Part shown: positions 5,370 to 45,197 of the stretch, one piece after another
Position numbering within the stretch: the stretch's first letter is position 1
Layout: every line of letters starts with the position of its first letter
NCBI GenBank assembly: GCA_965279375.1
Contig: OZ257156.1
Span: 3,296,001-3,360,000, forward strand
Direction of reading: 5' to 3'
Length of the DNA stretch: 64,000 bases
Origin: Gemmatimonas sp.
GTDB lineage: Bacteria; Gemmatimonadota; Gemmatimonadetes; Gemmatimonadales; Gemmatimonadaceae
The notes under the pieces: model-generated
What the model was told of the DNA's origin: nothing
What the model saw: only the letters and a program-made list of their open reading frames with translations
Databases searched by the model: none
Program-made: the position numbers and the translations under genes

Positions 5370-8300
5370 ATGCACAAGAAGCCTCTTCGTCGGTTCGCTG
5401 CCGCCGTGCTTCTGGCGACCGCGATCACATCGCTCTCTCCCGTCATCGCCACGGTGGAAGCGCAAAGTGCACAGCGCGTCGTCACGGGAAAGGTCACGTC
5501 TGCTGTCGGCGGACGTGCGCTGCAGGGCGTGACCGTGATCGTGCGTGGTACGCAGCTGGGGACGATCACCAACGCGGCCGGTGAGTATCGACTCCTGCTT
5601 CCCGAGCAAGCGGGCACGGAGATCTTCACGTTTCGACTGCTGGGCTTCAAGGCAATCGACGAGCCGATCCGTGGTCGGACGACGATCAACATGGCGCTCG
5701 AAGAGTCGACGAACACACTCTCCGATGTCGTGGTCACGGCGAATGCGATCGTGCGCGAGACGAAAGAACTCGGCTACGCCATCGCTCAGGTCGAGCCGGA
5801 GAAGCTCACCGTGGCGCGCAGCTCCAACGTGCTCAACGGCCTCGCGGCGAAAGTCTCCGGCGTGCGTATCACGCAGCAGTCAGGCACCGTCGGCGGTTCG
5901 AGCAAGATCGTGATTCGCGGCGTGAACTCCATCGCCTCCGCATCCGAGCCACTCTTCGTGGTCGATGGTGTGCCCATCTCCAACTCGGCCTTCGCCGGGA
6001 CCGAGACGGAGATCGTGACCGGTGGTGTCGATGTGGGCAATCGCGCGCAGGACATCAATCCGGACGACATTGAATCGATGTCGGTGCTCAAGGGCGCCGC
6101 GGCGTCGGCGCTGTATGGGTCTCGCGCGCGAAACGGCGTGATCGTCGTGACGACCAAGCGCGGCTTCCAGGGGCAACCGCGATTCACCTACAACGGAAGC
6201 ACGCGCTCTGACGCGATCTTTCGCGCCCCGAAGTTTCAGAATTCGTACGCGCAGGGATCCCTCGGCGTGTACAACAAGGACCTGTCCAATGGTTGGGGGC
6301 CGCTCATCACCGGCCAACGCGTCGCCAATTTTTACGGCGACAGTGTGAACCTGGCGGCGGACCCGAGCAACTACTCGGACTACTTCCAGACCGGCCTGAC
6401 CAACGTGCATTCCATGGCGGTGTCGGGCGGCAGCGAGACCAGCGACTATCGGCTTGGCGGCACGTTTCTGGGACAGTCGGGCATCGTGCCTAACTCCGAA
6501 CTGCAACGCTACACCTTGGCGTTGAACGCCGGGCAGCGTTTCAAGGAGAAGTTCACGGCCAGAGTCGCGGCCAACTACGTGCGCTCCAATTCGTCCGGTC
6601 GAGCGTCGCAGGGGCAGAATGGGCAGAGCATTCCGACGTCGATCTGGACCTTTGCCTCCCGCACGCTCTCCACGGAGTTTCTGCGCAAGAATCGCGTCGG
6701 TCCGGATGGACGCGCCGGCTCGATCGATGGTACTGGCACCTCCAACAATCCGTACTGGGTGTCCGACAACAATGGGCTGAGCAACTCCACCGATCGGCTC
6801 TTCGGCAACACCTATCTCTCTTACGATGCCAAGCCGTGGTTCAACATCGCGTTCCGTGCGGGTACGGATATCGCGGTCGAAGGGCGTCGGTTCGTCACGC
6901 GCAAGGGAACCCGTGGTCGTCTCGACGGAGAGTTCGACACGCAGGACCTCAACGAGCGTGAGCTGAACACGGACCTTATCGGCACTTTCACGCGTCAGCT
7001 CGCGACGTCGCTGACCATGAAGGCCGTGGTTGGACACAACTTCAACAAGCGCACGTTCAAGCGGCAGCGCGTGTTCAGCCAAGGGCTCAACATCGACCAG
7101 CTGTACACGCAGGCGAACGCGAACGTGAATGCCGCGACGAACTTCTTTTCGGAACGGCAGTTGTACGGAGCCTACACCGATATCGGTTTCGGCTGGCGCG
7201 ACTATCTGTTTGTAAACGTCACCGGACGCAACGATTGGTCGTCCACGCTCCCGGTCGACAACAATAGCTACTTCTATCCGTCGGTCTCCACCGGATTCGT
7301 CGTCTCCGACGCGTTCCGCGAGTCGAGAATCTTCAAGAGCGGACTGGTGAGCTTCGCCAAGGTGCGGGCGAACTATGCGAACGTCGGATCGGATGAGGAG
7401 CCCTATCAGCTGGCCTTCACCTACTCGCCGCTCACGCAGCAGTCTGACATTTACACGTTCAATCAGAACTTCCCGTACAACGGCGCGTCGGCATTCGGAG
7501 CAACGAATGTGATCCCGCCCTCCAACCTGCGTCCGCAGCGCCAGTCGTCGTATGAAGTGGGATCTGAACTTCGGTTCCTGCGCAATCGTGTCGGGCTCGA
7601 CGTGACGTACTACAACGTCCGCAACTACGATCAGATCGTCTCTATCTCCGTGCCCCAGACGACGGGATTCAGCGCGCGCCGTCTCAACGTTGGCGAGATC
7701 TCCAACAAGGGACTCGAGTTGCAGGGGATGTACACGGTCGTGGAGCGTCCCCGAAACGGCTTCAAGTGGGATGTGAACGCCAACTACAGCCGCAACCGCA
7801 ACATCGTGGAGAAGCTGGCGCCGGGCCTCAAGGAATTCTCCGTGACGTCGGGTGATGGCTTTGGCCTGTTCGTGGTGGCGCAGCCGGGCACGACGTTCAA
7901 CCTGCAGGGCGTTGGCTTCCTGCGCGATTCCGTGAGCGGACAGTTCATCATCAATCCGCAGAACGGGCTTCGGATCTCGGGTCCGCGCAAGCTGCTGGGC
8001 AACATCTATCCGGACTGGATCGGTGGCATCAACAACTCCTTCAGCTACAAGAACGCCTCATTCTCGTTCCTCGTCGATGTGCGGCGTGGCGGTGTGATCG
8101 CGTCCAGCACGGTGTCGGCGCTCCGCTCATCCGGGACTGGCGAAGAAACATCCAACAGGACGCCGTTTGTGCAGCCGGGCGTGATTCGTAACGCAGACGG
8201 GAGCACGCGGCCGAATGATGTGCCGGTGTCGAGTGTGCAGGCGTACTGGGGCAATCTCGACAGCTCCGTCAGTCCGGAGAACAACGTGTTCGACGCGTCG

Positions 8301-8543
8301 TATGTGAAGCTTCGCGAGCTGCAGATCAGCTACAAGTTGCCCGGCAGCTGGGCCTCTCGCATGCGCGTACGCGAGGCGACATGGTCGTTGGAAGGGCGCA
8401 ATCTGTGGCTCATCTCGAGCAAGGTGCCCCACATCGATCCTGAGTCGAATGTGCTGGGAACCGGACTCATTGGCGAAGGCATCGAGCGCAACAACATTCC
8501 GTCGACTCGCTCCTTCGGCACCAATCTTCGCTTGACCTTCTGA
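5370..8543 (+). CDS. SusC/RagA family TonB-dependent outer membrane transporter
   Basis: Signal peptide; CarboxypepD_reg-like N-terminus; plug motifs IRGVNSI, PLFVVDGVP and DINPDDIESMSVLKGAAASALYGSRARNGVIVVTTKRG; C-terminal Phe. Start probably ATG 5370. Confidence 0.92.
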   Translation: MHKKPLRRFAAAVLLATAITSLSPVIATVEAQSAQRVVTGKVTSAVGGRALQGVTVIVRGTQLGTITNAAGEYRLLLPEQAGTEIFTFRLLGFKAIDEPIRGRTTINMALEESTNTLSDVVVTANAIVRETKELGYAIAQVEPEKLTVARSSNVLNGLAAKVSGVRITQQSGTVGGSSKIVIRGVNSIASASEPLFVVDGVPISNSAFAGTETEIVTGGVDVGNRAQDINPDDIESMSVLKGAAASALYGSRARNGVIVVTTKRGFQGQPRFTYNGSTRSDAIFRAPKFQNSYAQGSLGVYNKDLSNGWGPLITGQRVANFYGDSVNLAADPSNYSDYFQTGLTNVHSMAVSGGSETSDYRLGGTFLGQSGIVPNSELQRYTLALNAGQRFKEKFTARVAANYVRSNSSGRASQGQNGQSIPTSIWTFASRTLSTEFLRKNRVGPDGRAGSIDGTGTSNNPYWVSDNNGLSNSTDRLFGNTYLSYDAKPWFNIAFRAGTDIAVEGRRFVTRKGTRGRLDGEFDTQDLNERELNTDLIGTFTRQLATSLTMKAVVGHNFNKRTFKRQRVFSQGLNIDQLYTQANANVNAATNFFSERQLYGAYTDIGFGWRDYLFVNVTGRNDWSSTLPVDNNSYFYPSVSTGFVVSDAFRESRIFKSGLVSFAKVRANYANVGSDEEPYQLAFTYSPLTQQSDIYTFNQNFPYNGASAFGATNVIPPSNLRPQRQSSYEVGSELRFLRNRVGLDVTYYNVRNYDQIVSISVPQTTGFSARRLNVGEISNKGLELQGMYTVVERPRNGFKWDVNANYSRNRNIVEKLAPGLKEFSVTSGDGFGLFVVAQPGTTFNLQGVGFLRDSVSGQFIINPQNGLRISGPRKLLGNIYPDWIGGINNSFSYKNASFSFLVDVRRGGVIASSTVSALRSSGTGEETSNRTPFVQPGVIRNADGSTRPNDVPVSSVQAYWGNLDSSVSPENNVFDASYVKLRELQISYKLPGSWASRMRVREATWSLEGRNLWLISSKVPHIDPESNVLGTGLIGEGIERNNIPSTRSFGTNLRLTF

Positions 8544-8581
8544 TCTGCCTTCATCGAACCTCCTGCCTGCGAGCTCACGAC

Positions 8582-10051
8582 ATGACGACAATCAGAACGC
8601 ACATCGCCAAAACGCGCATTGCGCGACCTCTCCGCCGCCTGGCCCAGTGCGCGACGGTGGCGCTGTTGGCCATTCCCGGGGTGTCCTGCTTTTCCGACGG
8701 TAGCCTCAACGTCGATCCCAACCGCTCGACGACCGCCGATCCTGCGCTGCTGTTCACCGGCGCCGAAGTGAAGTTCTCGCTCCTGCGCGTCGGTGAGCTC
8801 ACGTGGCCTATCGCGCTGATGAGTCAGATGTGGGCGTCGGGTGGCCGCTGGGGATTGGAGCAGGCGCGCTACGACCAGACCCGCGTGCGCAGTGCGTGGG
8901 GCAGCATCTATACCGACGTACTGAAGAACCTTGTGCTGGCCACGCGTGACGCCGAAGCGAAGACGCCGAGGCCGAACAACGCGATCGCGCAGCTGAAGAT
9001 CTACACGGCCTTCGTGTACTCGCAGACGAGCTATCTCTGGGGCGACATCCCGTTCACCGAGGCGGCTGGCGGTACGGTTGACTTCCCCAAGTTCGACTCG
9101 CAGGAGTCGGTGCTGAACGGCTGCATCAAGTTGCTCGATGAAGCGATCGCCTCCATCGACGCGAATTCGCAGCGCATTGGTGCACCGAACGATCTGTACT
9201 ACGGCGGCGACATGACGAAATGGCGTCGGTTCGCCAACTCGCTCAAGTTCCGCATTCTGATGACCATGGTGGATGCGGATCCGTCGAAGAGTGCGGCCAT
9301 CGGCGTAATGACTGCCGTGCCCATGATCGCCAGCACGGCCGACGAGATGAAGTTTCCGTACTTCGATTCACCGGGCCGGCAGAATCCTCGCTTTTCATTC
9401 ACGGCAATCTTTCGCGGTGGCGTGCAGTCGGACTGGTACGCGTCCAACGTGATGTTTCAGGAGATGGTGCCGTTCAACGATCCGCGGCTCCCTGTGTTTT
9501 TCCAGCCGGGGCCAGGTGCGCCATCGGGAGTCTACCTCTCGCTAGATCCGGTGCAGACCTACGACCCGGTGCGTTCCTCGCTCGTGAATCTCAACTTGCT
9601 CAAGGCCAATCTCCCCGAGGTCTCGTTCTCGTACTCGGAGCAACTGCTGCTCGAAGCGGAAGCGATGGGGCGTGGCTTCTGGGCGGGCGGTCTTGCGGGA
9701 TCTGAGACGCGCTTTCGGCAGGGCGTTCGCGAGTCGATGCTGGCAGCCGGTGTGGCTGGCAGCGAAGCCGATCGCTACATCACGTCGCTGCCAGCCTTCA
9801 GCGCAGCGAACTTCCGCCGTGAACTGAACCGCCAGCAGTGGCTCGACCTGTTCATGCGTCCTGCAGATGCGTGGGTGCAGTGGCGTCGCAGCGGTGCGAG
9901 CGGACAGGAATACCCGGCGATGACCGTTCCCGCCGGTGCGCTGTCGACCAATCTGATGCGCCGCTTGCTGTATCGGAGCGAGGAGATCAACTCAAACCCC
10001 AATACGCCCACTGGCATCACGGTCGACAAGCCGCTCTGGTTCGACAAATGA
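8582..10051 (+). CDS. SusD/RagB family nutrient-binding outer membrane lipoprotein
   Basis: Lipobox-like GVSC; WGDIPFTEA, DLYYGGDMTKWRRFANSLKFR, DPRL and C-terminal LWFDK; directly downstream of susC. Confidence 0.9.
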   Translation: MTTIRTHIAKTRIARPLRRLAQCATVALLAIPGVSCFSDGSLNVDPNRSTTADPALLFTGAEVKFSLLRVGELTWPIALMSQMWASGGRWGLEQARYDQTRVRSAWGSIYTDVLKNLVLATRDAEAKTPRPNNAIAQLKIYTAFVYSQTSYLWGDIPFTEAAGGTVDFPKFDSQESVLNGCIKLLDEAIASIDANSQRIGAPNDLYYGGDMTKWRRFANSLKFRILMTMVDADPSKSAAIGVMTAVPMIASTADEMKFPYFDSPGRQNPRFSFTAIFRGGVQSDWYASNVMFQEMVPFNDPRLPVFFQPGPGAPSGVYLSLDPVQTYDPVRSSLVNLNLLKANLPEVSFSYSEQLLLEAEAMGRGFWAGGLAGSETRFRQGVRESMLAAGVAGSEADRYITSLPAFSAANFRRELNRQQWLDLFMRPADAWVQWRRSGASGQEYPAMTVPAGALSTNLMRRLLYRSEEINSNPNTPTGITVDKPLWFDK

Positions 10052-12885: not shown

Positions 12886-13902
12886 TCAGGCTCCAGCGGA
12901 GGGGCCACCTTTCTGCATCGTGCCAACGCTCAGGCCGAGCCGCGCGAAGTACACCGCGCCGATGATCGTGATCGGCAGGAACGTGAGGATGTGGAATCCC
13001 AATGCCCAACTCACCGCGAGCTCCTTGGGTACGCCGTACACACCGAGGCCAACGATGGAGGCCGTTTCGAACACGCCGAAGAAGCCTGGCGAACTGGGAA
13101 TGGCCACGCCGATTGCCTGAATGCCCTGAAGAAACAGCGCTGCCGACAACGGAACCTTGATGCCGACGGCAAGGAATCCGATATACAGGCTGACCGCCTG
13201 TACCACCCAGTGCGCTGCGGCCCAGAAGAGTACGGCGAGAAAGCGGCGGCCGTCCTTGAGCACGGCCAGACCGCCCAAGCCATGCGACACGAGGCGCACG
13301 ATCGTTTCGCTGTACTTGGGCAGCACCCGGTCGGCAATTGCGCGCACGATCGCCATCACGCGCTCATGCTGCATGACCACCGCGTAGCAGACGGCCAGGA
13401 GAGTGAGCACCGCGATGATGCCGCCACTCGCGAGCTGTGGCACCGTACGTCCTGCGATGATGATACCGGGCGGAAACGCGGGATCGAGCATCGCGAGGAA
13501 CATCAGCGCGAAGAGCACGATTGCATCGAAAATCCGATCAACGGCCAGACTGCCGAACGACGTCGTGATGGCGACCTTCGGCACCTCACGCGTGAGCGCG
13601 AAGGCGCGGGCGAACTCGCCCGCGCGCAGCGGAAAGACGTTGTTCATCATCATGCCGATGGCAGTGCTGCGCCACAGCGGCCCAAAGGGCAGCACACCGG
13701 CGACCGGTTCGAGGATCGTGCGCCAACGCCGTGCACGCAGCGGAAAAATGCTCACGTTGACAAGCACCGCCGCCACGAACAGCGGCACGCTCGATTGCCG
13801 CAGAACCGCCCAGACTTCGGTCGGTGAGACTTCGCGCAACGTCCACCACAACAACACACCGCTCAGTGCAAAGCCGAGCGCGCTCTTCCAGTCCAGTTTC
13901 AC
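12886..13902 (-). CDS. Lysylphosphatidylglycerol synthase TM-region (flippase-like) family membrane protein
   Basis: RARRWRTIL, NNVFPLRAGEFARA, VDRIFD and PSSPGFFGVFE motifs; about 8 TM helices; no synthase domain. Confidence 0.85.
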   Translation of the reverse strand: MKLDWKSALGFALSGVLLWWTLREVSPTEVWAVLRQSSVPLFVAAVLVNVSIFPLRARRWRTILEPVAGVLPFGPLWRSTAIGMMMNNVFPLRAGEFARAFALTREVPKVAITTSFGSLAVDRIFDAIVLFALMFLAMLDPAFPPGIIIAGRTVPQLASGGIIAVLTLLAVCYAVVMQHERVMAIVRAIADRVLPKYSETIVRLVSHGLGGLAVLKDGRRFLAVLFWAAAHWVVQAVSLYIGFLAVGIKVPLSAALFLQGIQAIGVAIPSSPGFFGVFETASIVGLGVYGVPKELAVSWALGFHILTFLPITIIGAVYFARLGLSVGTMQKGGPSAGA

Positions 13903-31916: not shown

Positions 31917-32058
31917 ATGACGAAACCGGACCGGAAGGTCGGGGGAAACGATCACGATTGGAGTCGCGGGCCGCATCCGATGCGATGAGACATTCGCGAC
32001 ACGCCAACTGGACAAACGACAACGCGGGCCCGCCGGCAAGTGCAGCGGACCCGCGGAG

Positions 32059-32148
32059 CGGAGGAAGCGGGATTCGAACCCGCGATAGGGGTTGACCCCC
32101 TATGCCGGTTTAGCAAACCGGTGCCTTCAGCCTCTCGGCCATCCCTCC
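32059..32148 (-). tRNA. tRNA-Ser(GCU)
   Basis: GGAGGGA/TTCCTCC acceptor stem; CCGGT-TTGCTAA-ACCGG anticodon arm; long variable arm; GGTTCGAATCC T-loop; G discriminator; CCA not encoded. Confidence 0.96.
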
Positions 32149-32215: not shown

Positions 32216-32285
32216 CCACAAAATCGGAAGCTGATCGGCGATTCACGCCGCGGCCCCATGTGCGCGAATGGACTGGCAGAACCAA

Positions 32286-32372
32286 CGGCGTAGGTGAGAT
32301 TCGAACTCACGGAACCCTTTCAGGTTCGGCGGTTTTCAAGACCGCTGCCTTAAACCACTCGGCCACCACGCC
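32286..32372 (-). tRNA. tRNA-Ser(UGA)
   Basis: GGCGTGG/CTACGCC acceptor stem; GCGGT-CTTGAAA-ACCGC anticodon arm; long variable arm; AGTTCGAATCT T-loop; CCA not encoded. Confidence 0.96.
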
Positions 32373-32381
32373 AGCGCATGG

Positions 32382-35075: not shown

Positions 35076-35118
35076 AAACAACGAAGGGCCGCGATCATCT
35101 CGCGGCCCTTCGTCGTTT
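35076..35118. terminator. Bidirectional intrinsic terminator
   Basis: ACGAAGGGCCGCGA-TCATC-TCGCGGCCCTTCGT 14-bp stem flanked by AAAC and GTTT, between convergent genes. Confidence 0.8.
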
Positions 35119-35142: not shown

Positions 35143-37506
35143 CTACTTCTTGGGCTCGACGCCCGGCGGTGCGCCACCGGGCTGTCCGGGCGGCACGAGC
35201 AGTTGCTGCACGGAGGTATCGCCGCCGGGCATGGCCGGTGAGGTCTGCCGGTCGAAGCCGAACACCTTCTCGCGACGCATCGCCTTGGCCACGGCACGCG
35301 AGCTCTGGAAGACTGCCTCGGACTCACGCAGACGACCGGTTGCCGCAAGTGCTTCGGCCAGCGTGATGCCGCTGATCACGTACAGGTCGGGAATGCCGAC
35401 CGACGCATCGTCCACCCAGCCGTCGCGCTTGGCGAGCGACTTGTTGGCGGTGAAGACGTCGTTCCAGAGCGCGAGCGAACGCTTCACATCCACCAGCCCT
35501 TCGCCCTGAATCAGCACCGTGTCCTTGCTGGGGAGGAGCTGATGATCGGACAACTTCTTGGCCATGCCCTGCGTGACGATGTAGCGCTCGAGACCGAGCT
35601 CGTACGGATAGCCACCTGCGGTGCGGCTGAAGTAGATCGGACGCTTGGGGAAAGCATCGCGGATCATGAAGTACACCAGCTGGTCGGCGCGCATCAGCTG
35701 CTGCAGGCGCGGCGTGGCGGTGATGCCGCCGCTCTGGAACGCCATGTTCTGCGGGATCGCGATCGCGAGCGGAATCGCGTCCGCTTCCTCGAAGTTCATC
35801 TTGACCGGCGAACCTTCCGGCTTGGGCCACTGCTGATTGCGATAGATCGCGGGCCCCTTGGCCGCGTCGTACTCGAACACCGGGCGACGAATGAGCTGAC
35901 GCGTGTACCAGTCGGTGTTGAGCAACGACGTGTTGGCCACGACGACGTCCTTGCGAATGCCTTCGACTTCCTGCGCATACCACAGCGGGAAGGTGTCGTT
36001 GTCGCCGACGGTGATCAGGATGCCGTACGGTTCGACCGAGTTGAGCAGATCGCGGGCGAAGTCCGTCGTATCGGTCTGGTTGGAGCGCGACGCCTGCGTC
36101 CAGTTGCCGAAGAGCGGGATGAATGCCACGGCGAGCAGCGGCGTGGCCAGCAGGAAGCTGCGCTGGCGCGGTTCGCTGATCGTTTCGCGGCCAAGCTTCA
36201 CTTCATCCGAACCAAACAGGCTGGCAACGGTCTCCCACAAGTACACGAGTCCGAGCGCGGCCCAGACGCTGAGCGCCGAGAAGCTCCACAGGTAGAAGTA
36301 GTCTCGGTCACGCACTTCGCGGTTCACCGAGTCGCCAAGCTCCGGCGACTGCGAATGCCCGTACTTGAAATTGAGGTAGTAGATCAGCCCCAGTGTCATG
36401 GTGAACACCAGCGGCCCGAAGAACCAGAAACTTCGTCTGTCCTTGCGGTAGTGCATCCACCCGCCGATGCCCACCAGGATGAAGAAGAACACCGCGAGTC
36501 CGTTCTGCAGCCCGGGACGCTCGCCGTACGCATCGCGCAGCCACTGCCACTTCCAGTAGAGCCACCACATCCCCATCTGCGCCGTGAGGGGCGCCTGACG
36601 CTCGCCCAGCTCCGGCTTGCCGTACTGACCGCGATTGAAGTTGTACATGAAGCGGTCGTACGTCAGCGCCGAGAAAGTGCAGCTGGCCTTGAGTTCCATG
36701 GCGCAGCCGGTCGGCTCGCCTTCGTTCATGGCGGGGAAGTGCGCCGCGCGAATGGGCTGCGTGGCAAAGGGCGTGATGCCGAACGCGAGCGCTGCAGCGC
36801 ACGCCAGCAACAGCTTCCAGCGCAGCACGGTCCTAGGGCTGCGCACCAGCACTGCAAAGCCCACCGCAGGCGCCGCGAGCATGCCGGCCATGTGGTTCGC
36901 GTAGCCCAATCCCAACAAGTACGCCACGAGCACCAGCAGACGGTCTGCGCCCGGCTCTTCCGGGTCGTCGCACCAGCGCACGGTGAGCCAGCAGACGATA
37001 GCCAGACCGAGTAGCGAGACCGTGTACACCTTCTCGTTCACCACCGACTGATTCCACACCGTGAACGCCGTCGCGCCGATCAATGCCGCCAGCGATCCGC
37101 CGGCGATGCGCTGCCAACGACGCGGCAACCACGACACCAGCACGCGTTCGGTCACGAGGAACCAGAAGGCCGCGGACACCGCGCTCGAAACGGCCGCCAG
37201 CACGTTGATCCGCATCGCTACCGTGGGCGCGATCGGCAGGATCGAGAAGACGCGCCCGATCAGTACGAAAAACGGGTTGCCGGGCGGATGCGGAATGCCC
37301 AGCACGTAGGCCGCGGTGATGTACTCGCTCGTGTCCCACATGGACGTCGTCGGCGCGAGCGTGATGATGTACAACAGGAAGACCACCAGCCCCGCGATGG
37401 TGGCGGCGAGGTACGACGGTCGGTAGTCGAGTTCGGCCACACCAGCTTTGGAGCTGGTCGTGGACCCAACGGCGGCAGTCGCGGATGCGGTGGCGGCGAC
37501 GGTCAT
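35143..37506 (-). CDS. DUF2723 (TMEM260-like, GT-C fold) integral membrane glycosyltransferase
   Basis: TLAPTTSMWDTSEY...GIPHPPGNPFF, EKVY, REVRDRDYFY and GDNDTFPLWYAQEVEG motifs; about 11-13 TM helices plus a soluble C-terminal domain; start ATG 37506. Confidence 0.85.
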   Translation of the reverse strand: MTVAATASATAAVGSTTSSKAGVAELDYRPSYLAATIAGLVVFLLYIITLAPTTSMWDTSEYITAAYVLGIPHPPGNPFFVLIGRVFSILPIAPTVAMRINVLAAVSSAVSAAFWFLVTERVLVSWLPRRWQRIAGGSLAALIGATAFTVWNQSVVNEKVYTVSLLGLAIVCWLTVRWCDDPEEPGADRLLVLVAYLLGLGYANHMAGMLAAPAVGFAVLVRSPRTVLRWKLLLACAAALAFGITPFATQPIRAAHFPAMNEGEPTGCAMELKASCTFSALTYDRFMYNFNRGQYGKPELGERQAPLTAQMGMWWLYWKWQWLRDAYGERPGLQNGLAVFFFILVGIGGWMHYRKDRRSFWFFGPLVFTMTLGLIYYLNFKYGHSQSPELGDSVNREVRDRDYFYLWSFSALSVWAALGLVYLWETVASLFGSDEVKLGRETISEPRQRSFLLATPLLAVAFIPLFGNWTQASRSNQTDTTDFARDLLNSVEPYGILITVGDNDTFPLWYAQEVEGIRKDVVVANTSLLNTDWYTRQLIRRPVFEYDAAKGPAIYRNQQWPKPEGSPVKMNFEEADAIPLAIAIPQNMAFQSGGITATPRLQQLMRADQLVYFMIRDAFPKRPIYFSRTAGGYPYELGLERYIVTQGMAKKLSDHQLLPSKDTVLIQGEGLVDVKRSLALWNDVFTANKSLAKRDGWVDDASVGIPDLYVISGITLAEALAATGRLRESEAVFQSSRAVAKAMRREKVFGFDRQTSPAMPGGDTSVQQLLVPPGQPGGAPPGVEPKK

Positions 37507-37618: not shown

Positions 37619-40267
<2,649 letters not shown>

Positions 40268-40274
40268 GGCGAGC

Positions 40275-40832
40275 TCAGTCGGCTGTCAGCGCGCGCTGCA
40301 GGAATGCGCGCGCGATGACCCAGTCTCGTTTGACGGTCCGTTCGGACACGCCGAGCACCTGGGCCGTCTGTTCGACGGACAGACCGCCGAAGTAGCGGAG
40401 CTCGACGACCTTGGCTTGGCGCGCATCGAGTGCCGCGAGTTGCTCGAGTGCGGCGTCCACCTCGAGCAGCTGCTCCGATTCCTGTGCCGCGGCGTCCATG
40501 CCATCGCGCAGTCGCACGACGTTGTCACCACCGCGCTTTTCGGCGCGACCACGACGCGCATGGTCCACGAGAATACGCCGCATCACCGTGGCCGCGATGG
40601 CGTAGAAGTGCCCGCGGTTCTCGAAGGTCGCATCGCGCTGATCGATCAGCCGCAGGTAGGCTTCGTGCACCAGCGCTGTGGGCTGCAGCGTGTGGCCCTC
40701 CGCTTCGTGCTGCAGCGAACGCGCGGCCATGCGGCGCAGCTCGTCGTAGACCAGCGGCAGCACCGCGTCGTACGCGCCGGGCTGTCCGAGCTGGACGCGC
40801 TGCAGCAGCGCGGTGATGGAGGAGGCGGGCAC
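40275..40832 (-). CDS. ECF sigma factor, kinase-associated (ECF43/TIGR02999-like)
   Basis: ITALL...LPLVYDELRRMA, HTLQPTALVHEAYLRL, MRRILVDHAR and VVELRYFGGLS...SERTVKRDW motifs; probable GTG start at 40832. Confidence 0.9.
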   Translation of the reverse strand: MPASSITALLQRVQLGQPGAYDAVLPLVYDELRRMAARSLQHEAEGHTLQPTALVHEAYLRLIDQRDATFENRGHFYAIAATVMRRILVDHARRGRAEKRGGDNVVRLRDGMDAAAQESEQLLEVDAALEQLAALDARQAKVVELRYFGGLSVEQTAQVLGVSERTVKRDWVIARAFLQRALTAD

Positions 40833-43273: not shown

Positions 43274-43851
43274 GTGCGTTCCACGAAAAAGGCAGCGATG
43301 TCGTCCAACGCGATGGTGACGGCGTCGAGCACCGACTCGGCAATGCGTATGCGCGGCGAGAGCTGTTCGCGCGTGGCCTCCAGATCGGCCTCAGGCGTTT
43401 CCGCGCCGGGCACCAGCACGCCCAAGCCACCGGTGCTCAGGGCAGGCTGCACGTCACGCCAGCGATCGCCGATGTACGCGGAGCGGGCGAGATCGATGTC
43501 GAATCGTGCGGCGGCCTGCTGATACATACCCAGCTTGGGTTTGCGACAGTCGCAGTCGCCGCCGTGCTCCGCGTGATGCGGACAATGATACGTCGCGTCC
43601 ACCTGCGCTCCGTCGCGCGCGAGCAGCGCGTTGGTGCGGTCGCGCACCGCCTCGTACTGCGCGGTGGTGATCATGCCGCGCGCAATGCCCGACTGATTCG
43701 TCACGACGATCGCGAGCACGCCGGCGGCGTTGACGCGCGACACGGCCGCTGCCGCGCCGCGCAGCAGGCGCACCTGCGCAGGATCAGCGAGGTAGTGCGC
43801 GTCCGCGATGAGCGTGCCATCGCGATCGAGGAAGATGGCCGGACGCGTCAC
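43270..43851 (-). CDS. gmhB: HAD IIIA phosphatase, D-glycero-D-manno-heptose 1,7-bisphosphate phosphatase-like
   Basis: FLDRDGT, VTNQSGIARG, CPHH...CDCRKP and IGDRWRD motifs. Confidence 0.8.
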   Translation of the reverse strand: MTRPAIFLDRDGTLIADAHYLADPAQVRLLRGAAAAVSRVNAAGVLAIVVTNQSGIARGMITTAQYEAVRDRTNALLARDGAQVDATYHCPHHAEHGGDCDCRKPKLGMYQQAAARFDIDLARSAYIGDRWRDVQPALSTGGLGVLVPGAETPEADLEATREQLSPRIRIAESVLDAVTIALDDIAAFFVERT

Positions 43852-45197
43852 GCGGGCGGCTTGCGGGGCGCCGCCGTCGCGCTGTCCTTCTTCACGGTCG
43901 TGCTGTCCTTCTTCACCGGCGCCTTGGGCGTCGTGAGCGTGCGCGCAGGCGAGCGCACGGTGCCCGAGAGGCTCCGAATGGACTGCACCTGCACACGAAA
44001 GATGGACGCGGCAGGCAACGGCTCGGCGAGCGTCACGTACAACTCCGCGTACACCGGATCGCGACGCATCTTGGGCGGCGGTGTGGTGTCGCGCGGCGGC
44101 AACGGCTTGTTGCCGCGGAGAATCGCGAGGCGCCGAGCTTCACGGTCTGCGCGCTCCACCAGAACGAGGCTGTCGAGGCGACGCTTGCGGGCCACCGAGT
44201 CGGCGCGCGCGCGGGCGGCCGCGCTGGTGTCCACCTTCACCGTTTTCGCAATGGAGTCGGCCGTCGCTTTTCGCGCCAGCGAGTCGTAGAGCATTCGGAT
44301 CGGAACGGTTTCGATCTTGACCACACGCAACTCGGTGGAGTCGGACTTCTTGATCGTCACACGGCTCCGGTCGAACACCTGCTCGGGCGAGTACGGCTTG
44401 TCCAACGTCAGCTTGATCACGCGGCCGCTGTCCTGCACGGCCATTTCCGAGATCCGGATCCCGACGGTGTCGTGCGGGAACGTGTACAACTCGGCGTTCG
44501 CGCTCGCCGTGATGGTGCGGCGCGTCGTGTCCCATGATTCGGACGGATCGAGCTCGCGATTGGAATTGCGGTCGCCGTACGCGCGGATGGTGTAATCGCC
44601 CGGCGGCATGTAGCGCAGGTCGTATCGGCCCACGCTGTCGGTCAGCACCTGATAGACGGTGCTGTCGTATCCGATCGCTTCGACCAGCGCCTTGGGCGAC
44701 GGCTTGCCCGCCACCCAGTCGAACACCACGCCGGTGATGCTGGTCTTCGGGATCTCGCCGCCGGTGCTGAACACGAGTCGGATCGTGCTGTCGATGCCGT
44801 TATTCCGCAGATCCGAGATGCCGGGGCTCACCGTGATCGAATAGACGGTGTTCGGCTTCCATCCCTTCTTCGGACTGATGGAGATCTTCGTGCGTCCCCA
44901 GTCCACGCTTGGCTTGCCCGCCTTCGGACTGATGAAGACGAGCTGGTCGAGCGTGGGTGCCCCGCGCGGGGTTTCGCTGATGACTTCATTGAACTGAATG
45001 ACGACGGACTTGGGCTTCGCGCCAACCGCGCCGTTGCCGGGCGAGATCTTGGTGACCCAGGGCGCGTCGAGGTCGGGTGGACCGCCTTCCGGCGCAGTCA
45101 CGTTGGCGCACGCGGCCGCGATGCTGGCGGTGATCGTGGCCGCCAGCACCCACAGCCCAACCGCGCGTACCCGCCGCGACCGAGATCCGTCGCTCAT
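43848..45197 (-). CDS. Lipoprotein with Big_5 (SbsA-like) Ig domain and carboxypeptidase-regulatory-like domain
   Basis: IAAAC lipobox followed by A-x4-P-x-G-G-P-x-D; FNE, W-x-P-N-T-x-Y, DLRNN and FSTG motifs; ATGA overlap with the valS stop. Confidence 0.8.
   Translation of the reverse strand: MSDGSRSRRVRAVGLWVLAATITASIAAACANVTAPEGGPPDLDAPWVTKISPGNGAVGAKPKSVVIQFNEVISETPRGAPTLDQLVFISPKAGKPSVDWGRTKISISPKKGWKPNTVYSITVSPGISDLRNNGIDSTIRLVFSTGGEIPKTSITGVVFDWVAGKPSPKALVEAIGYDSTVYQVLTDSVGRYDLRYMPPGDYTIRAYGDRNSNRELDPSESWDTTRRTITASANAELYTFPHDTVGIRISEMAVQDSGRVIKLTLDKPYSPEQVFDRSRVTIKKSDSTELRVVKIETVPIRMLYDSLARKATADSIAKTVKVDTSAAARARADSVARKRRLDSLVLVERADREARRLAILRGNKPLPPRDTTPPPKMRRDPVYAELYVTLAEPLPAASIFRVQVQSIRSLSGTVRSPARTLTTPKAPVKKDSTTVKKDSATAAPRKPPA

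What the first reader, a model, noticed from the sequence alone, without database searches (positions are those of the whole stretch)
35143..37506. TMEM260-like GT-C (DUF2723) as candidate initiating protein O-glycosyltransferase
Seen: a multi-TM protein with an acidic first-loop motif (WDTSE), HPPG and conserved RDRDY and GDNDTFPLWY blocks, plus a soluble C-terminal domain. Established: DUF2723 is the N-terminal domain of human TMEM260, a protein O-mannosyltransferase that uses a lipid-phosphate-mannose donor. Inference: this enzyme modifies the D-S/T sequons enriched in exported proteins of this window. To my knowledge the transferase for that sequon is not firmly assigned, so this is a testable enzyme-substrate pairing.
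Basis: partly seen in the sequence, partly recalled or inferred. Interest (0 to 1): 0.72.

Follow-up and report, generated by a model that had tools for sequence, protein, structure and literature searches.

The report
Candidate missing bacterial protein O-mannosyltransferase
This gene is an intact bacterial relative of the human protein-mannosylating enzyme TMEM260, and it is a strong but untested candidate for the still-unidentified enzyme that puts the first sugar on exported proteins of Bacteroidota and related phyla.

Summary
The gene is real: 787 aa, PF11028/GT117, GT-C fold, in a Gemmatimonas-like genome. All six active-site residues needed by human TMEM260 are kept in 59 of 59 aligned FCB-group homologues. 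One correction: WDTSE D58 matches donor-binding D52; the catalytic base D441 matches D502 of GDNDT.

The D-S/T-hydrophobic sequon is enriched genome-wide in exported proteins (O/E 1.55 versus 0.93 cytoplasmic) and only beyond the membrane span of 15 receptor kinases (3.17 versus 0.92). Three Proteobacterial controls show none (0.90). In the window, one lipoprotein carries most of the excess.

The family occurs in 120/121 Gemmatimonadota and 400/401 Bacteroidota genomes. One Fibrobacterota operon joins it to a polyprenol-P-mannose-synthase-like gene, a flippase-like gene and rmlD. Published Tn-seq marks it essential in 5 of 6 Bacteroidales strains. A 2025 review calls the initiating enzyme undiscovered.

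Against: one closed Fibrobacterota genome lacks the gene but keeps the sequon excess (1.85); this genome has a second paralogue and about ten other GT-C genes; no activity was measured. Best reading: the initiating protein O-mannosyltransferase (about 0.64). This scan reached the same idea earlier on other DNA.

The parts
35143..37506 (-). Gene for the GT117/TMEM260-like GT-C glycosyltransferase (787 aa; start could be 37440)
36832..37335 (-). PF11028 (DUF2723/TMEM260-like) domain, residues 58-225
   Evidence: E 2.3e-48
37324..37338 (-). WDTSE motif; D58 = human D52 (donor binding)
   Evidence: alignment; 59 of 59 rows; role
37279..37290 (-). HPPG motif; H73 = human H67
36622..36633 (-). RGQY motif; R292/Y295 = human R264/Y267 of the donor-loading loop
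   Evidence: the aligned stretch scores weakly on its own (4.2 bits)
36298..36312 (-). RDRDY motif; R401 = human R355; R399 is invariant in the bacterial rows and has no basic counterpart in human
35977..36006 (-). GDNDTFPLWY motif; D502 = human D441, the proposed catalytic base
35281..36090 (-). Soluble, inferred periplasmic region (about residues 473-742): alpha/beta domain followed by helices
   Evidence: secondary structure of the model; sidedness inferred from human TMEM260
35081..35113 (.). Perfect 14-bp inverted repeat between this gene and the convergent PEBP-family gene; probable terminator
   Evidence: read from the sequence; not listed by the consensus scan
43848..45149 (-). Exported Big_5-domain protein with 13 sequons against 2.1 expected; candidate substrate
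37619..40267 (-). Upstream membrane Ser/Thr kinase with TPRs; 6 of its 9 sequons lie after the membrane span; candidate substrate, not a dedicated partner

Best explanation
The protein is an inner-membrane GT-C enzyme that starts general protein O-glycosylation in this bacterium and across the FCB group. A DPM1-like GT2 makes polyprenyl-phosphate-mannose in the cytoplasm, and a flippase-like protein moves it across the membrane. This enzyme binds it through D58, H73, R292, Y295 and R401, and D502 activates the Ser/Thr hydroxyl of a D-S/T-hydrophobic motif in an exported, still unfolded chain. Other transferases then extend the mannose. Shown here: family, fold, residue conservation, distribution, gene context in relatives and sequon statistics. 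Taken from papers: the human mechanism and the essentiality lists. Inferred: donor identity, acceptor, order of steps, and that Gemmatimonadota proteins are actually glycosylated.
For: (1) D58, H73, R292, Y295, R401 and D502 align with human D52, H67, R264, Y267, R355 and D441 and are invariant in 59 of 59 rows; the human mutants lose all or about 80% of activity. (2) The Bacteroidota core glycan starts with a hexose (mannose), its transferase is 'undiscovered', and the review suggests looking for O-mannosylation homologues. (3) PF11028 occurs in 120/121 Gemmatimonadota, 400/401 Bacteroidota, 51/51, 49/51 and 50/51 genomes of three further phyla, 1 of 14 control genomes (B. thetaiotaomicron) and 0 of 4 Proteobacterial replicons; the tree follows phyla. 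(4) Sequon O/E in this genome is 1.55 exported (2356/1520) versus 0.93 cytoplasmic (1927/2078); DS is first among the dipeptides and DSL first of 5260 tripeptides; E- and N-variants are not enriched. In 15 membrane kinases O/E is 0.92 before and 3.17 after the membrane span. Pooled controls without the gene give 0.90 (125/139) and eight FCB genomes with it give 1.80 (659/366). (5) Operon in G623: GT117, GT4, flippase-like, GT2, rmlD-like, DPM1-like, GT2; similar neighbours in L048, L054, L074, L078, L098. This genome has the DPM1-like gene (59-61% identity) two genes from a GT4, with an 8-helix membrane gene between them. It occurs in 149/151 Bacteroidota genomes. (6) In P. vulgatus Tn-seq the DUF2723 gene, a polyprenol monophosphomannose synthase and one flippase-like gene have zero insertions, while three O-antigen ligases, a PMT-like gene and two GtrA genes tolerate them. 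A P. gingivalis waaL mutant did not shift glycoprotein Mfa2. STT3 passes its cut-off in only 2 of 61 Bacteroidota genomes.
Against: G621, a single-contig 1.6-Mb Fibrobacterota genome, has no detectable homologue (family HMM, own profile, relative's protein and two exact motif scans). It still shows the sequon excess (93/50 = 1.85) and keeps the DPM1-like, GT4 and flippase-like genes. Two of eight FCB genomes with the gene showed no excess in the samples taken (G121 0.81, G126 0.98), pooled Bacteroidia loci only 1.30 versus 1.13, and three relatives of G395 0.88 (11/13). This genome has a second paralogue with the same catalytic residues and about ten other GT-C-like genes. The window gene has no glycosylation neighbours. 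The commonest neighbour in relatives is a CE4 deacetylase (21 of 75 loci), which fits glycolipid modification. BT3247 is not marked essential. The reducing sugar is reported as Gal in T. forsythia. PF11028 clusters also occur in Myxococcota and Thermodesulfobacteriota, which I could not test for the sequon. Co-occurrence across one clade is shared by any FCB core gene.
Confidence: 0.64

Rival explanations
1. The enzyme decorates a glycolipid or envelope polymer (lipid A, LPS core or similar) from a polyprenyl-phosphate sugar, as ArnT-type GT-C enzymes do, with the neighbouring CE4 deacetylase preparing an amino-sugar donor. The sequon is served by something else.
For: A CE4 deacetylase follows the gene in 21 of 75 loci. 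ArnT is among the top fold matches. Essentiality also fits an envelope-lipid role. G621 keeps the sequon excess without the gene. The GT2 + deacetylase + GT-C design for lipid A is recalled, not from a call.
Against: The deacetylase tolerates insertions at 71% of sites in P. vulgatus while this gene tolerates none. No CE4 gene flanks it in the window or in the four Gemmatimonadota loci listed. The only sequence relative with a structure is a protein O-mannosyltransferase, and its soluble-domain catalytic base is kept. The profile's C-terminus matches TPR proteins. No ArnT/PMT_2 family match for P0001.
Confidence: 0.12
2. It belongs to the same protein O-glycosylation pathway but at another step: it transfers a pre-built Man-Rha disaccharide en bloc, or it is the ligase or an elongating enzyme for the protein-linked core.
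For: The published model has a core disaccharide assembled on Und-P and a separate unknown ligase. rmlD-like, GT4 and rhamnosyltransferase-like GT2 genes share operons with it; these are cytoplasmic-type enzymes that would act before flipping.
Against: The donor-site residues match a monophosphate-mannose user. Loss of the outer glycan is viable, whereas this gene is marked essential in 5 of 6 strains, which argues against the ligase version. The en-bloc version differs from the best explanation only in donor size.
Confidence: 0.1
3. The family is right but this copy is not the general enzyme in this genome: the 619-aa paralogue (G000:C1:3493474-3495333) serves the sequon, and the window copy has a narrower substrate.
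For: The paralogue keeps all six catalytic residues. It sits at the ftsH-folP/cdaA...yggS-divIVA site used by full-length copies in other Gemmatimonadales.
Against: The paralogue is on a very long branch (2.56) and is shorter, while the window copy has a short branch (0.11) inside the family's main clade. Six loci from same-family genomes with a single PF11028 match (G010, G051, G084, G087, G095, G109) fall in the window copy's clade.
Confidence: 0.07
4. An enzyme of an unrecognised family, or a PglL/WaaL-type O-OTase, initiates sequon glycosylation; GT117 is an unrelated FCB core gene that merely shares the distribution.
For: G621 has the sequon excess, the DPM1-like, GT4 and flippase-like genes but no GT117. 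Wzy_C genes are present in G000, G623, G212 and G121.
Against: G621 also lacks PMT_2 and Wzy_C matches. Of its 30 sampled relatives, 29 match PF11028 and the last has a partial hit at a contig end. Its operon is broken at large repeated genes, so recent loss or an assembly deletion is plausible. O-antigen ligases tolerate insertions, and waaL loss has no effect on Mfa2, although redundancy could hide either.
Confidence: 0.07

Closest known systems
Human TMEM260 (CAZy GT117; PF11028; PDB 9RQL/9RQM/9RQN), ER protein O-mannosyltransferase for IPT domains
   Same: PF11028 domain, GT-C membrane region followed by a soluble alpha/beta domain, and the six residues D52, H67, R264, Y267, R355, D441.
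   Different: The human enzyme recognises a long Pro/Gly-rich IPT sequon using a five-helix TPR domain. That pattern matched only 3 of 4327 called proteins here, 1 of them exported. The bacterial rows have invariant R399 and N503-D504-T505 without human counterparts, and Ser (51 of 59) where human E466 contacts the residue before the acceptor. No bacterial member has a reported activity in the papers I could search.
Bacteroidota general protein O-glycosylation system (D-S/T-A/I/L/V/M/T sequon; core Man-Rha-GlcA)
   Same: Same motif, preference for Ser and for L, T, V, I, A at +1, no enrichment with Glu in place of Asp, confined to non-cytoplasmic regions.
   Different: Described as unique to Bacteroidota, with motif enrichment also noted for Fibrobacterota. 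Here the signal is in Gemmatimonadota and in samples of Zixibacteria and Marinisomatota. Its initiating transferase is unassigned, and the published model assumes an en-bloc OTase.
Other GT-C enzymes: PglB/STT3, Pmt4/PMT, ArnT
   Same: Same overall fold; these fill the top Foldseek ranks (E 1e-6 to 1e-4, TM-score about 0.35).
   Different: About 9-16% identity and no Pfam match to their families. STT3 is rare in Bacteroidota, and PMT_2 did not ring in the B. thetaiotaomicron control.

Membership tests
GT117 / TMEM260-like (PF11028) | PF11028 match above the curated cut-off | tested here: met
   164.8 bits versus 24.2
GT117 / TMEM260-like (PF11028) | GT-C membrane fold followed by a soluble Rossmann-like domain | tested here: met
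   model pLDDT 88.9; all 20 Foldseek hits at E<=0.001 are GT-C enzymes or complexes containing them; sequence match to human residues 291-480. 9RQL itself did not appear in the fold results, so no direct overlay was made
GT117 / TMEM260-like (PF11028) | Donor-binding D52, H67, R264, Y267, R355 | tested here: met
   D58, H73, R292, Y295, R401; 59 of 59 rows
GT117 / TMEM260-like (PF11028) | Catalytic base D441 in the soluble domain | tested here: met
   D502 in GDNDT; 59 of 59 rows
GT117 / TMEM260-like (PF11028) | C-terminal TPR domain with an asparagine ladder | tested here: inconclusive
   the family profile's positions 740-900 match TPR proteins; P0001 has four helices at 674-742 but no TPR Pfam match; the ladder was not examined
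GT117 / TMEM260-like (PF11028) | Transfers mannose from a polyprenyl-phosphate donor to protein Ser/Thr | not testable with these tools
   needs an assay; a DPM1-like gene exists in the genome
Human TMEM260 pathway (IPT-domain specific) | Substrates carry the long IPT-domain sequon | tested here: not met
   my regular expression for the published pattern matched 3 proteins, 1 exported
Bacteroidota general O-glycosylation system | D-S/T-hydrophobic motif enriched in non-cytoplasmic proteins only | tested here: met
   (own gene caller and signal-peptide heuristic)
Bacteroidota general O-glycosylation system | The motif is actually glycosylated, with a Man-Rha-type core | not testable with these tools
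   no Gemmatimonadota glycoproteome among the 5 papers listed
Bacteroidota general O-glycosylation system | Outer-glycan locus (metG, wzx, glycosyltransferases) | not tested
   not looked for in G000
PglL/WaaL-type O-OTase | Wzy_C (PF04932) domain | tested here: not met
   no match for P0001 at E<=0.01
ArnT/PMT_2-type GT-C | PMT_2 (PF13231) family match | tested here: not met
   no match for P0001; the window gene is not among the 10 PMT_2 matches of G000

The most novel reading that the evidence does not exclude
A three-gene core (polyprenyl-P-mannose synthase, flippase-like protein, GT117) has installed O-mannose on D-S/T-hydrophobic sequons since the ancestor of the FCB group. It is the sought initiating step of Bacteroidota O-glycosylation and is needed for growth in most gut Bacteroidales. 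It gives Gemmatimonadota an undescribed glycoproteome of over a thousand sites per genome, and it is the short-sequon bacterial form from which animal TMEM260 derives (this last link was not tested: no eukaryotic row was in the tree).
Probability: 0.5. Interest if true: 0.88.

Novelty: new variant of a known kind. Interest (0 to 1): 0.74.

Why it matters
A 2025 review lists the core-glycan flippase, transferase and ligase of Bacteroidota protein O-glycosylation as undiscovered, although about half of the non-cytoplasmic proteins of these bacteria carry the motif. This work names one gene per model strain (for example BT3247 and M0N98_00463), a catalytic residue to mutate, and donor and flippase candidates, so the question becomes a direct experiment. 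If true, the system extends from one phylum to much of the FCB group, including soil and freshwater Gemmatimonadota. It would also supply a three-residue-sequon O-glycosylation enzyme for engineering, a possible phylum-selective essential target, and a bacterial model for the enzyme family behind a human congenital disorder.

Tried and rejected
Local operon as evidence: rejected. The neighbours are a PEBP-family gene, a Ser/Thr kinase and an ECF sigma factor, and the window-level sequon excess rests mostly on one protein.

A spirochaete as a horizontal-transfer test case (L087): rejected, because its genome falls in the Bacteroidota set.

Apparent gene losses as natural experiments: G642 and G704 have partial hits at contig ends. 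G395 shows no excess (20/25), but neither do its three sampled relatives with the gene (11/13), so the pair is uninformative. G115 and G628 (fragmented assemblies, no hit) were not sampled for sequons. G621 went against the expectation and is reported as counter-evidence.

TMTC (PF08409) as a rival: 0 of 61, but no control rang, so inconclusive.

Overlay on TMEM260: not possible, since 9RQL was not among the fold results; residue equivalence rests on sequence alignment.

Plasmids and phages: five plasmid-collection hits, all Bacteroidota replicons, and one 7.3-kb viral-collection contig; not pursued.

The first maximum-likelihood tree did not finish; the FastTree result was used, and the paralogue's position on it is unsure.

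Coyne et al. 2013 was not held. Searching the text of papers for BT3247 found nothing relevant. No enzyme-peptide complex and no RNA-read test were run. No non-FCB genome carrying PF11028 could be reached for a sequon test.
Full report
OBSERVATION. The interval 35143-37506 on the minus strand is one open frame of 787 codons. It matches PF11028 at E 2.3e-48 and nothing else in Pfam at E<=0.01, nothing in NCBIfam, and one PDB sequence, human TMEM260. Close homologues are named DUF2723 or glycosyltransferase family 117 proteins of Gemmatimonas and Gemmatimonadaceae (best 120 of 6382 hits among 8000 scored candidates), so the host is Gemmatimonas-like. The model from a 59-row alignment (pLDDT 88.9) has about 11 long membrane-type helices, an alpha/beta domain from about residue 473 and four C-terminal helices. 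Foldseek returns GT-C enzymes (PglB, Pmt4, ArnT, STT3 complexes). Local neighbours are unrelated to glycosylation.

ACTIVE SITE. In the TMEM260 structure preprint (10.64898/2026.03.17.711096; I read parts 1-3 of 6: abstract, results, discussion; supplements closed), D52, H67, R264, Y267 and R355 hold Dol-P-Man, and D441 is the proposed base. Counting along the printed alignments gives D58, H73, R292, Y295, R401 and D502 here; the R292/Y295 stretch is a weak-scoring segment. All six are invariant in 59 of 59 rows spanning the FCB group. Human E466, which contacts the residue before the acceptor, aligns with Ser in 51 of 59 rows, and the bacterial rows add an invariant R399 near human positions that touch the peptide. 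That this suits an Asp before the acceptor is my inference; I had no coordinates.

IS THE QUESTION OPEN? The review PMC12871550 (main text read, figures not seen) gives the sequon and the Man-Rha-GlcA core. It states that the core flippase, OTase and ligase 'remain undiscovered', and advises looking for homologues of eukaryotic O-mannosylation. PMC8729774 (passages) also calls the transferase unknown and reports no shift of Mfa2 in a waaL mutant. The TMEM260 discovery paper notes only 'distant homologs in bacteria' (PMC10214176, passages). Full-text searches for DUF2723 (1 paper), GT117 (3 listed), TMEM260 with bacteria or structure, Bacteroidota O-glycosylation enzymes and Gemmatimonadota glycoproteins showed no paper assigning this family, judged from listings. 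Passages of PMC12645811, PMC11292533, PMC11858162, PMC13764152, PMC13721041 and 10.64898/2026.09.21.753134 added none. Subscription journals and preprint supplements are outside the library, so an assignment in print cannot be excluded.

SEQUON IN THIS GENOME. I called 4327 genes with my own hexamer model and classed them by a signal-peptide and hydrophobicity heuristic; misclassification should dilute the contrast. D[ST][AILVMT] has O/E 1.55 in 1118 exported proteins (2356/1520) and 0.93 in 2116 cytoplasmic ones (1927/2078). The exported/cytoplasmic ratios for E[ST]-hydrophobic, N[ST]-hydrophobic and reversed [ST]D are 0.79, 0.98 and 0.96. DS is the top dipeptide, the +1 preference is L, T, V, I, A, and DSL, DSA, DST, DSV are among the top five of 5260 tripeptides. 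DT alone is not enriched. In 15 single-span Ser/Thr kinases the motif is at 0.92 on the kinase side (16/17) and 3.17 beyond the membrane (74/23). The z-values assume independent sites and overstate.

CONTROLS. Samples from three Proteobacterial replicons without PF11028 (800 kb) give 0.99, 0.86 and 0.58, pooled 0.90 (125/139). Eight FCB genomes with the gene (120-200 kb each) give 2.24, 3.22, 1.80, 1.59, 0.81, 0.98, 1.77 and 1.80, pooled 1.80 (659/366). So 6 of 8 are enriched, and a Bacteroides sample is not, although the system was described in that genus. Bacteroidia loci pooled gave only 1.30 versus 1.13. Proteins under 80 aa were dropped throughout, and proteins with a Big_2-like repeat motif (label recalled) were dropped.

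DISTRIBUTION. PF11028 was found in 120 of 121 Gemmatimonadota and 400 of 401 genomes of the Bacteroides phylum. It was found in 51/51, 49/51 and 50/51 genomes of the phyla of G124, G123 and G125 (records titled Cloacimonadota, Fibrobacterales, Neomarinimicrobiota), and in 1 of 14 control genomes. Of these, 116 carry names I place in or beside the FCB group (grouping from my own knowledge), 4 are unnamed, and 1 labelled Sphaerochaetaceae lies in a genome of the Bacteroidota set. The tree of 80 rows follows phyla (FastTree, midpoint root). Related PF11028 clusters also exist in Myxococcota and Thermodesulfobacteriota. Kin are not independent, so this profile shows an FCB core gene, not co-evolution with the sequon.

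CONTEXT IN RELATIVES. Among 510 neighbours from 75 loci, a CE4 deacetylase follows the gene in 21 loci. DPM1-like GT2, rhamnosyltransferase-like GT2 and GT4 clusters each occur in 4 ('DPM1-like' is my label, and NCBIfam matches stay below their cut-offs). G623 has ribH, nusB, GT117, GT4, flippase-like, GT2, rmlD-like, DPM1-like and GT2 in one run. This genome keeps nusB followed by the same GT4 without GT117 between them. It holds the DPM1-like gene (59-61% identity to two such queries) elsewhere, beside an 8-helix membrane gene, a GT4 and a GT2. The DPM1-like gene is present in 149 of 151 Bacteroidota genomes.

PUBLISHED FUNCTIONAL DATA. In PMC13114119 (passages and supplement rows) the P. 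vulgatus DUF2723 gene has insertions at 0% of TA sites, against 78% and 71% for its flanks. The reciprocal-best-hit table marks it 'y' in 5 of 6 strains, not in B. thetaiotaomicron; I read 'y' as essential from the paper's text. The polyprenol monophosphomannose synthase is marked in 5 of 6 and one LPG-synthase-TM (flippase-like) gene in 6 of 6. Three O-antigen ligases, a PMT-like gene and two GtrA genes tolerate insertions. I did not check by sequence that this synthase is the orthologue of the DPM1-like neighbour. In PMC10897501 (passages and supplement rows) the P. intermedia DUF2723 protein is an inner-membrane protein, itself O-glycosylated at two sites, and a Big_5 lipoprotein carries 7 sites.

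AGAINST. G621 (one contig, 1,596,744 bp, 32% GC) gave no hit with PF11028, the 59-row profile, a relative's protein or exact HPPG-type and GDND scans. Its exported proteins still show O/E 1.85 (93/50 in 67 proteins from 460 kb), against 2.24 and 3.22 in two relatives. It keeps the DPM1-like, GT2, GT4 and flippase-like genes, scattered, with long repeated genes at the breakpoints, and has no PMT_2 or Wzy_C match. Of 30 relatives, 29 match PF11028 (this tally includes one unpublished genome, G703, on which no claim rests alone). Recent loss, an assembly deletion or a different enzyme all remain possible. In this genome the 619-aa paralogue keeps the catalytic residues and the position used by full-length copies in other Gemmatimonadales, but lies on a very long branch. 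About ten PMT_2-type genes also exist.

VERDICT. The protein is a member of GT117 by every sequence and fold feature I could test except the TPR region, which is inconclusive. It is not a member of the human IPT-specific pathway. The best-supported function is initiation of sequon-directed O-glycosylation with a polyprenyl-phosphate mannose donor (0.64). The rivals are lipid or polymer modification (0.12), another step of the same pathway (0.10), the paralogue doing the job (0.07) and an unrelated enzyme (0.07). Earlier notes of this scan proposed the same pairing on other DNA. They are not independent evidence; two gave leads that I checked (essentiality, Big_5 glycosylation).

Noticed in passing
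window 43848-45149 (-): Exported Big_5-domain protein with 13 sequons against 2.1 expected; a P. intermedia protein with the same domain label has 7 measured O-glycosites. Orthology was not tested.
   Followed up: partly
window 37619-40832 (-): ECF sigma factor gene directly upstream of a membrane Ser/Thr kinase with TPRs; the genome has at least 15 such single-span kinases whose outer parts are sequon-rich.
   Followed up: partly
window 12886-13902 (-): LPG-synthase-TM / flippase-like gene (PF03706, TIGR00374), the family found in GT117 operons of relatives and marked essential in Bacteroidales; here it lies upstream of an ispE-like gene (label recalled).
   Followed up: partly
window 32058-32148 (-) and 32285-32373 (-): Two tRNA-Ser genes (GCT, TGA) upstream of gltX.
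   Followed up: no
window 5370-10051 (+): SusC-like TonB-dependent receptor followed by a probable SusD-type partner; plasmid-collection hits are almost all Bacteroidota, plus Gemmatirosa.
   Followed up: no
G000:C1:3493474-3495333 (L002): Second GT117 gene, 619 aa, long branch, between a cdaA-like gene and yggS/divIVA-like genes (labels recalled), with all catalytic residues intact.
   Followed up: partly
G000:C1:3755786-3764458 (-): Run of genes ending in GT2, GT4, an 8-helix membrane gene and the DPM1-like synthase; an exported protein in the same run has 19 sequons against 2.3 expected, the largest excess in the genome.
   Followed up: partly
window 35143-37506, residues 392, 479, 662, 763: The enzyme carries sequon-like sites of its own; D-S/T is kept in 68, 120, 80 and 93 of 120 close homologues. 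The site at 479 may be structural.
   Followed up: partly
G621 (L259, L274, L348, L357): Small AT-rich closed genome with many near-identical long repeat-domain membrane genes sitting at operon breakpoints; lacks GT117, PMT_2 and Wzy_C matches.
   Followed up: partly
L032:1293-4322 (+): A full-length Bacteroidales-type GT117 gene on a 7.3-kb contig of the viral collection; probably host DNA.
   Followed up: no
L087: Record titled Sphaerochaetaceae, but its genome is grouped with Bacteroidota and the gene sits before a CE4 deacetylase as in Bacteroidales.
   Followed up: yes
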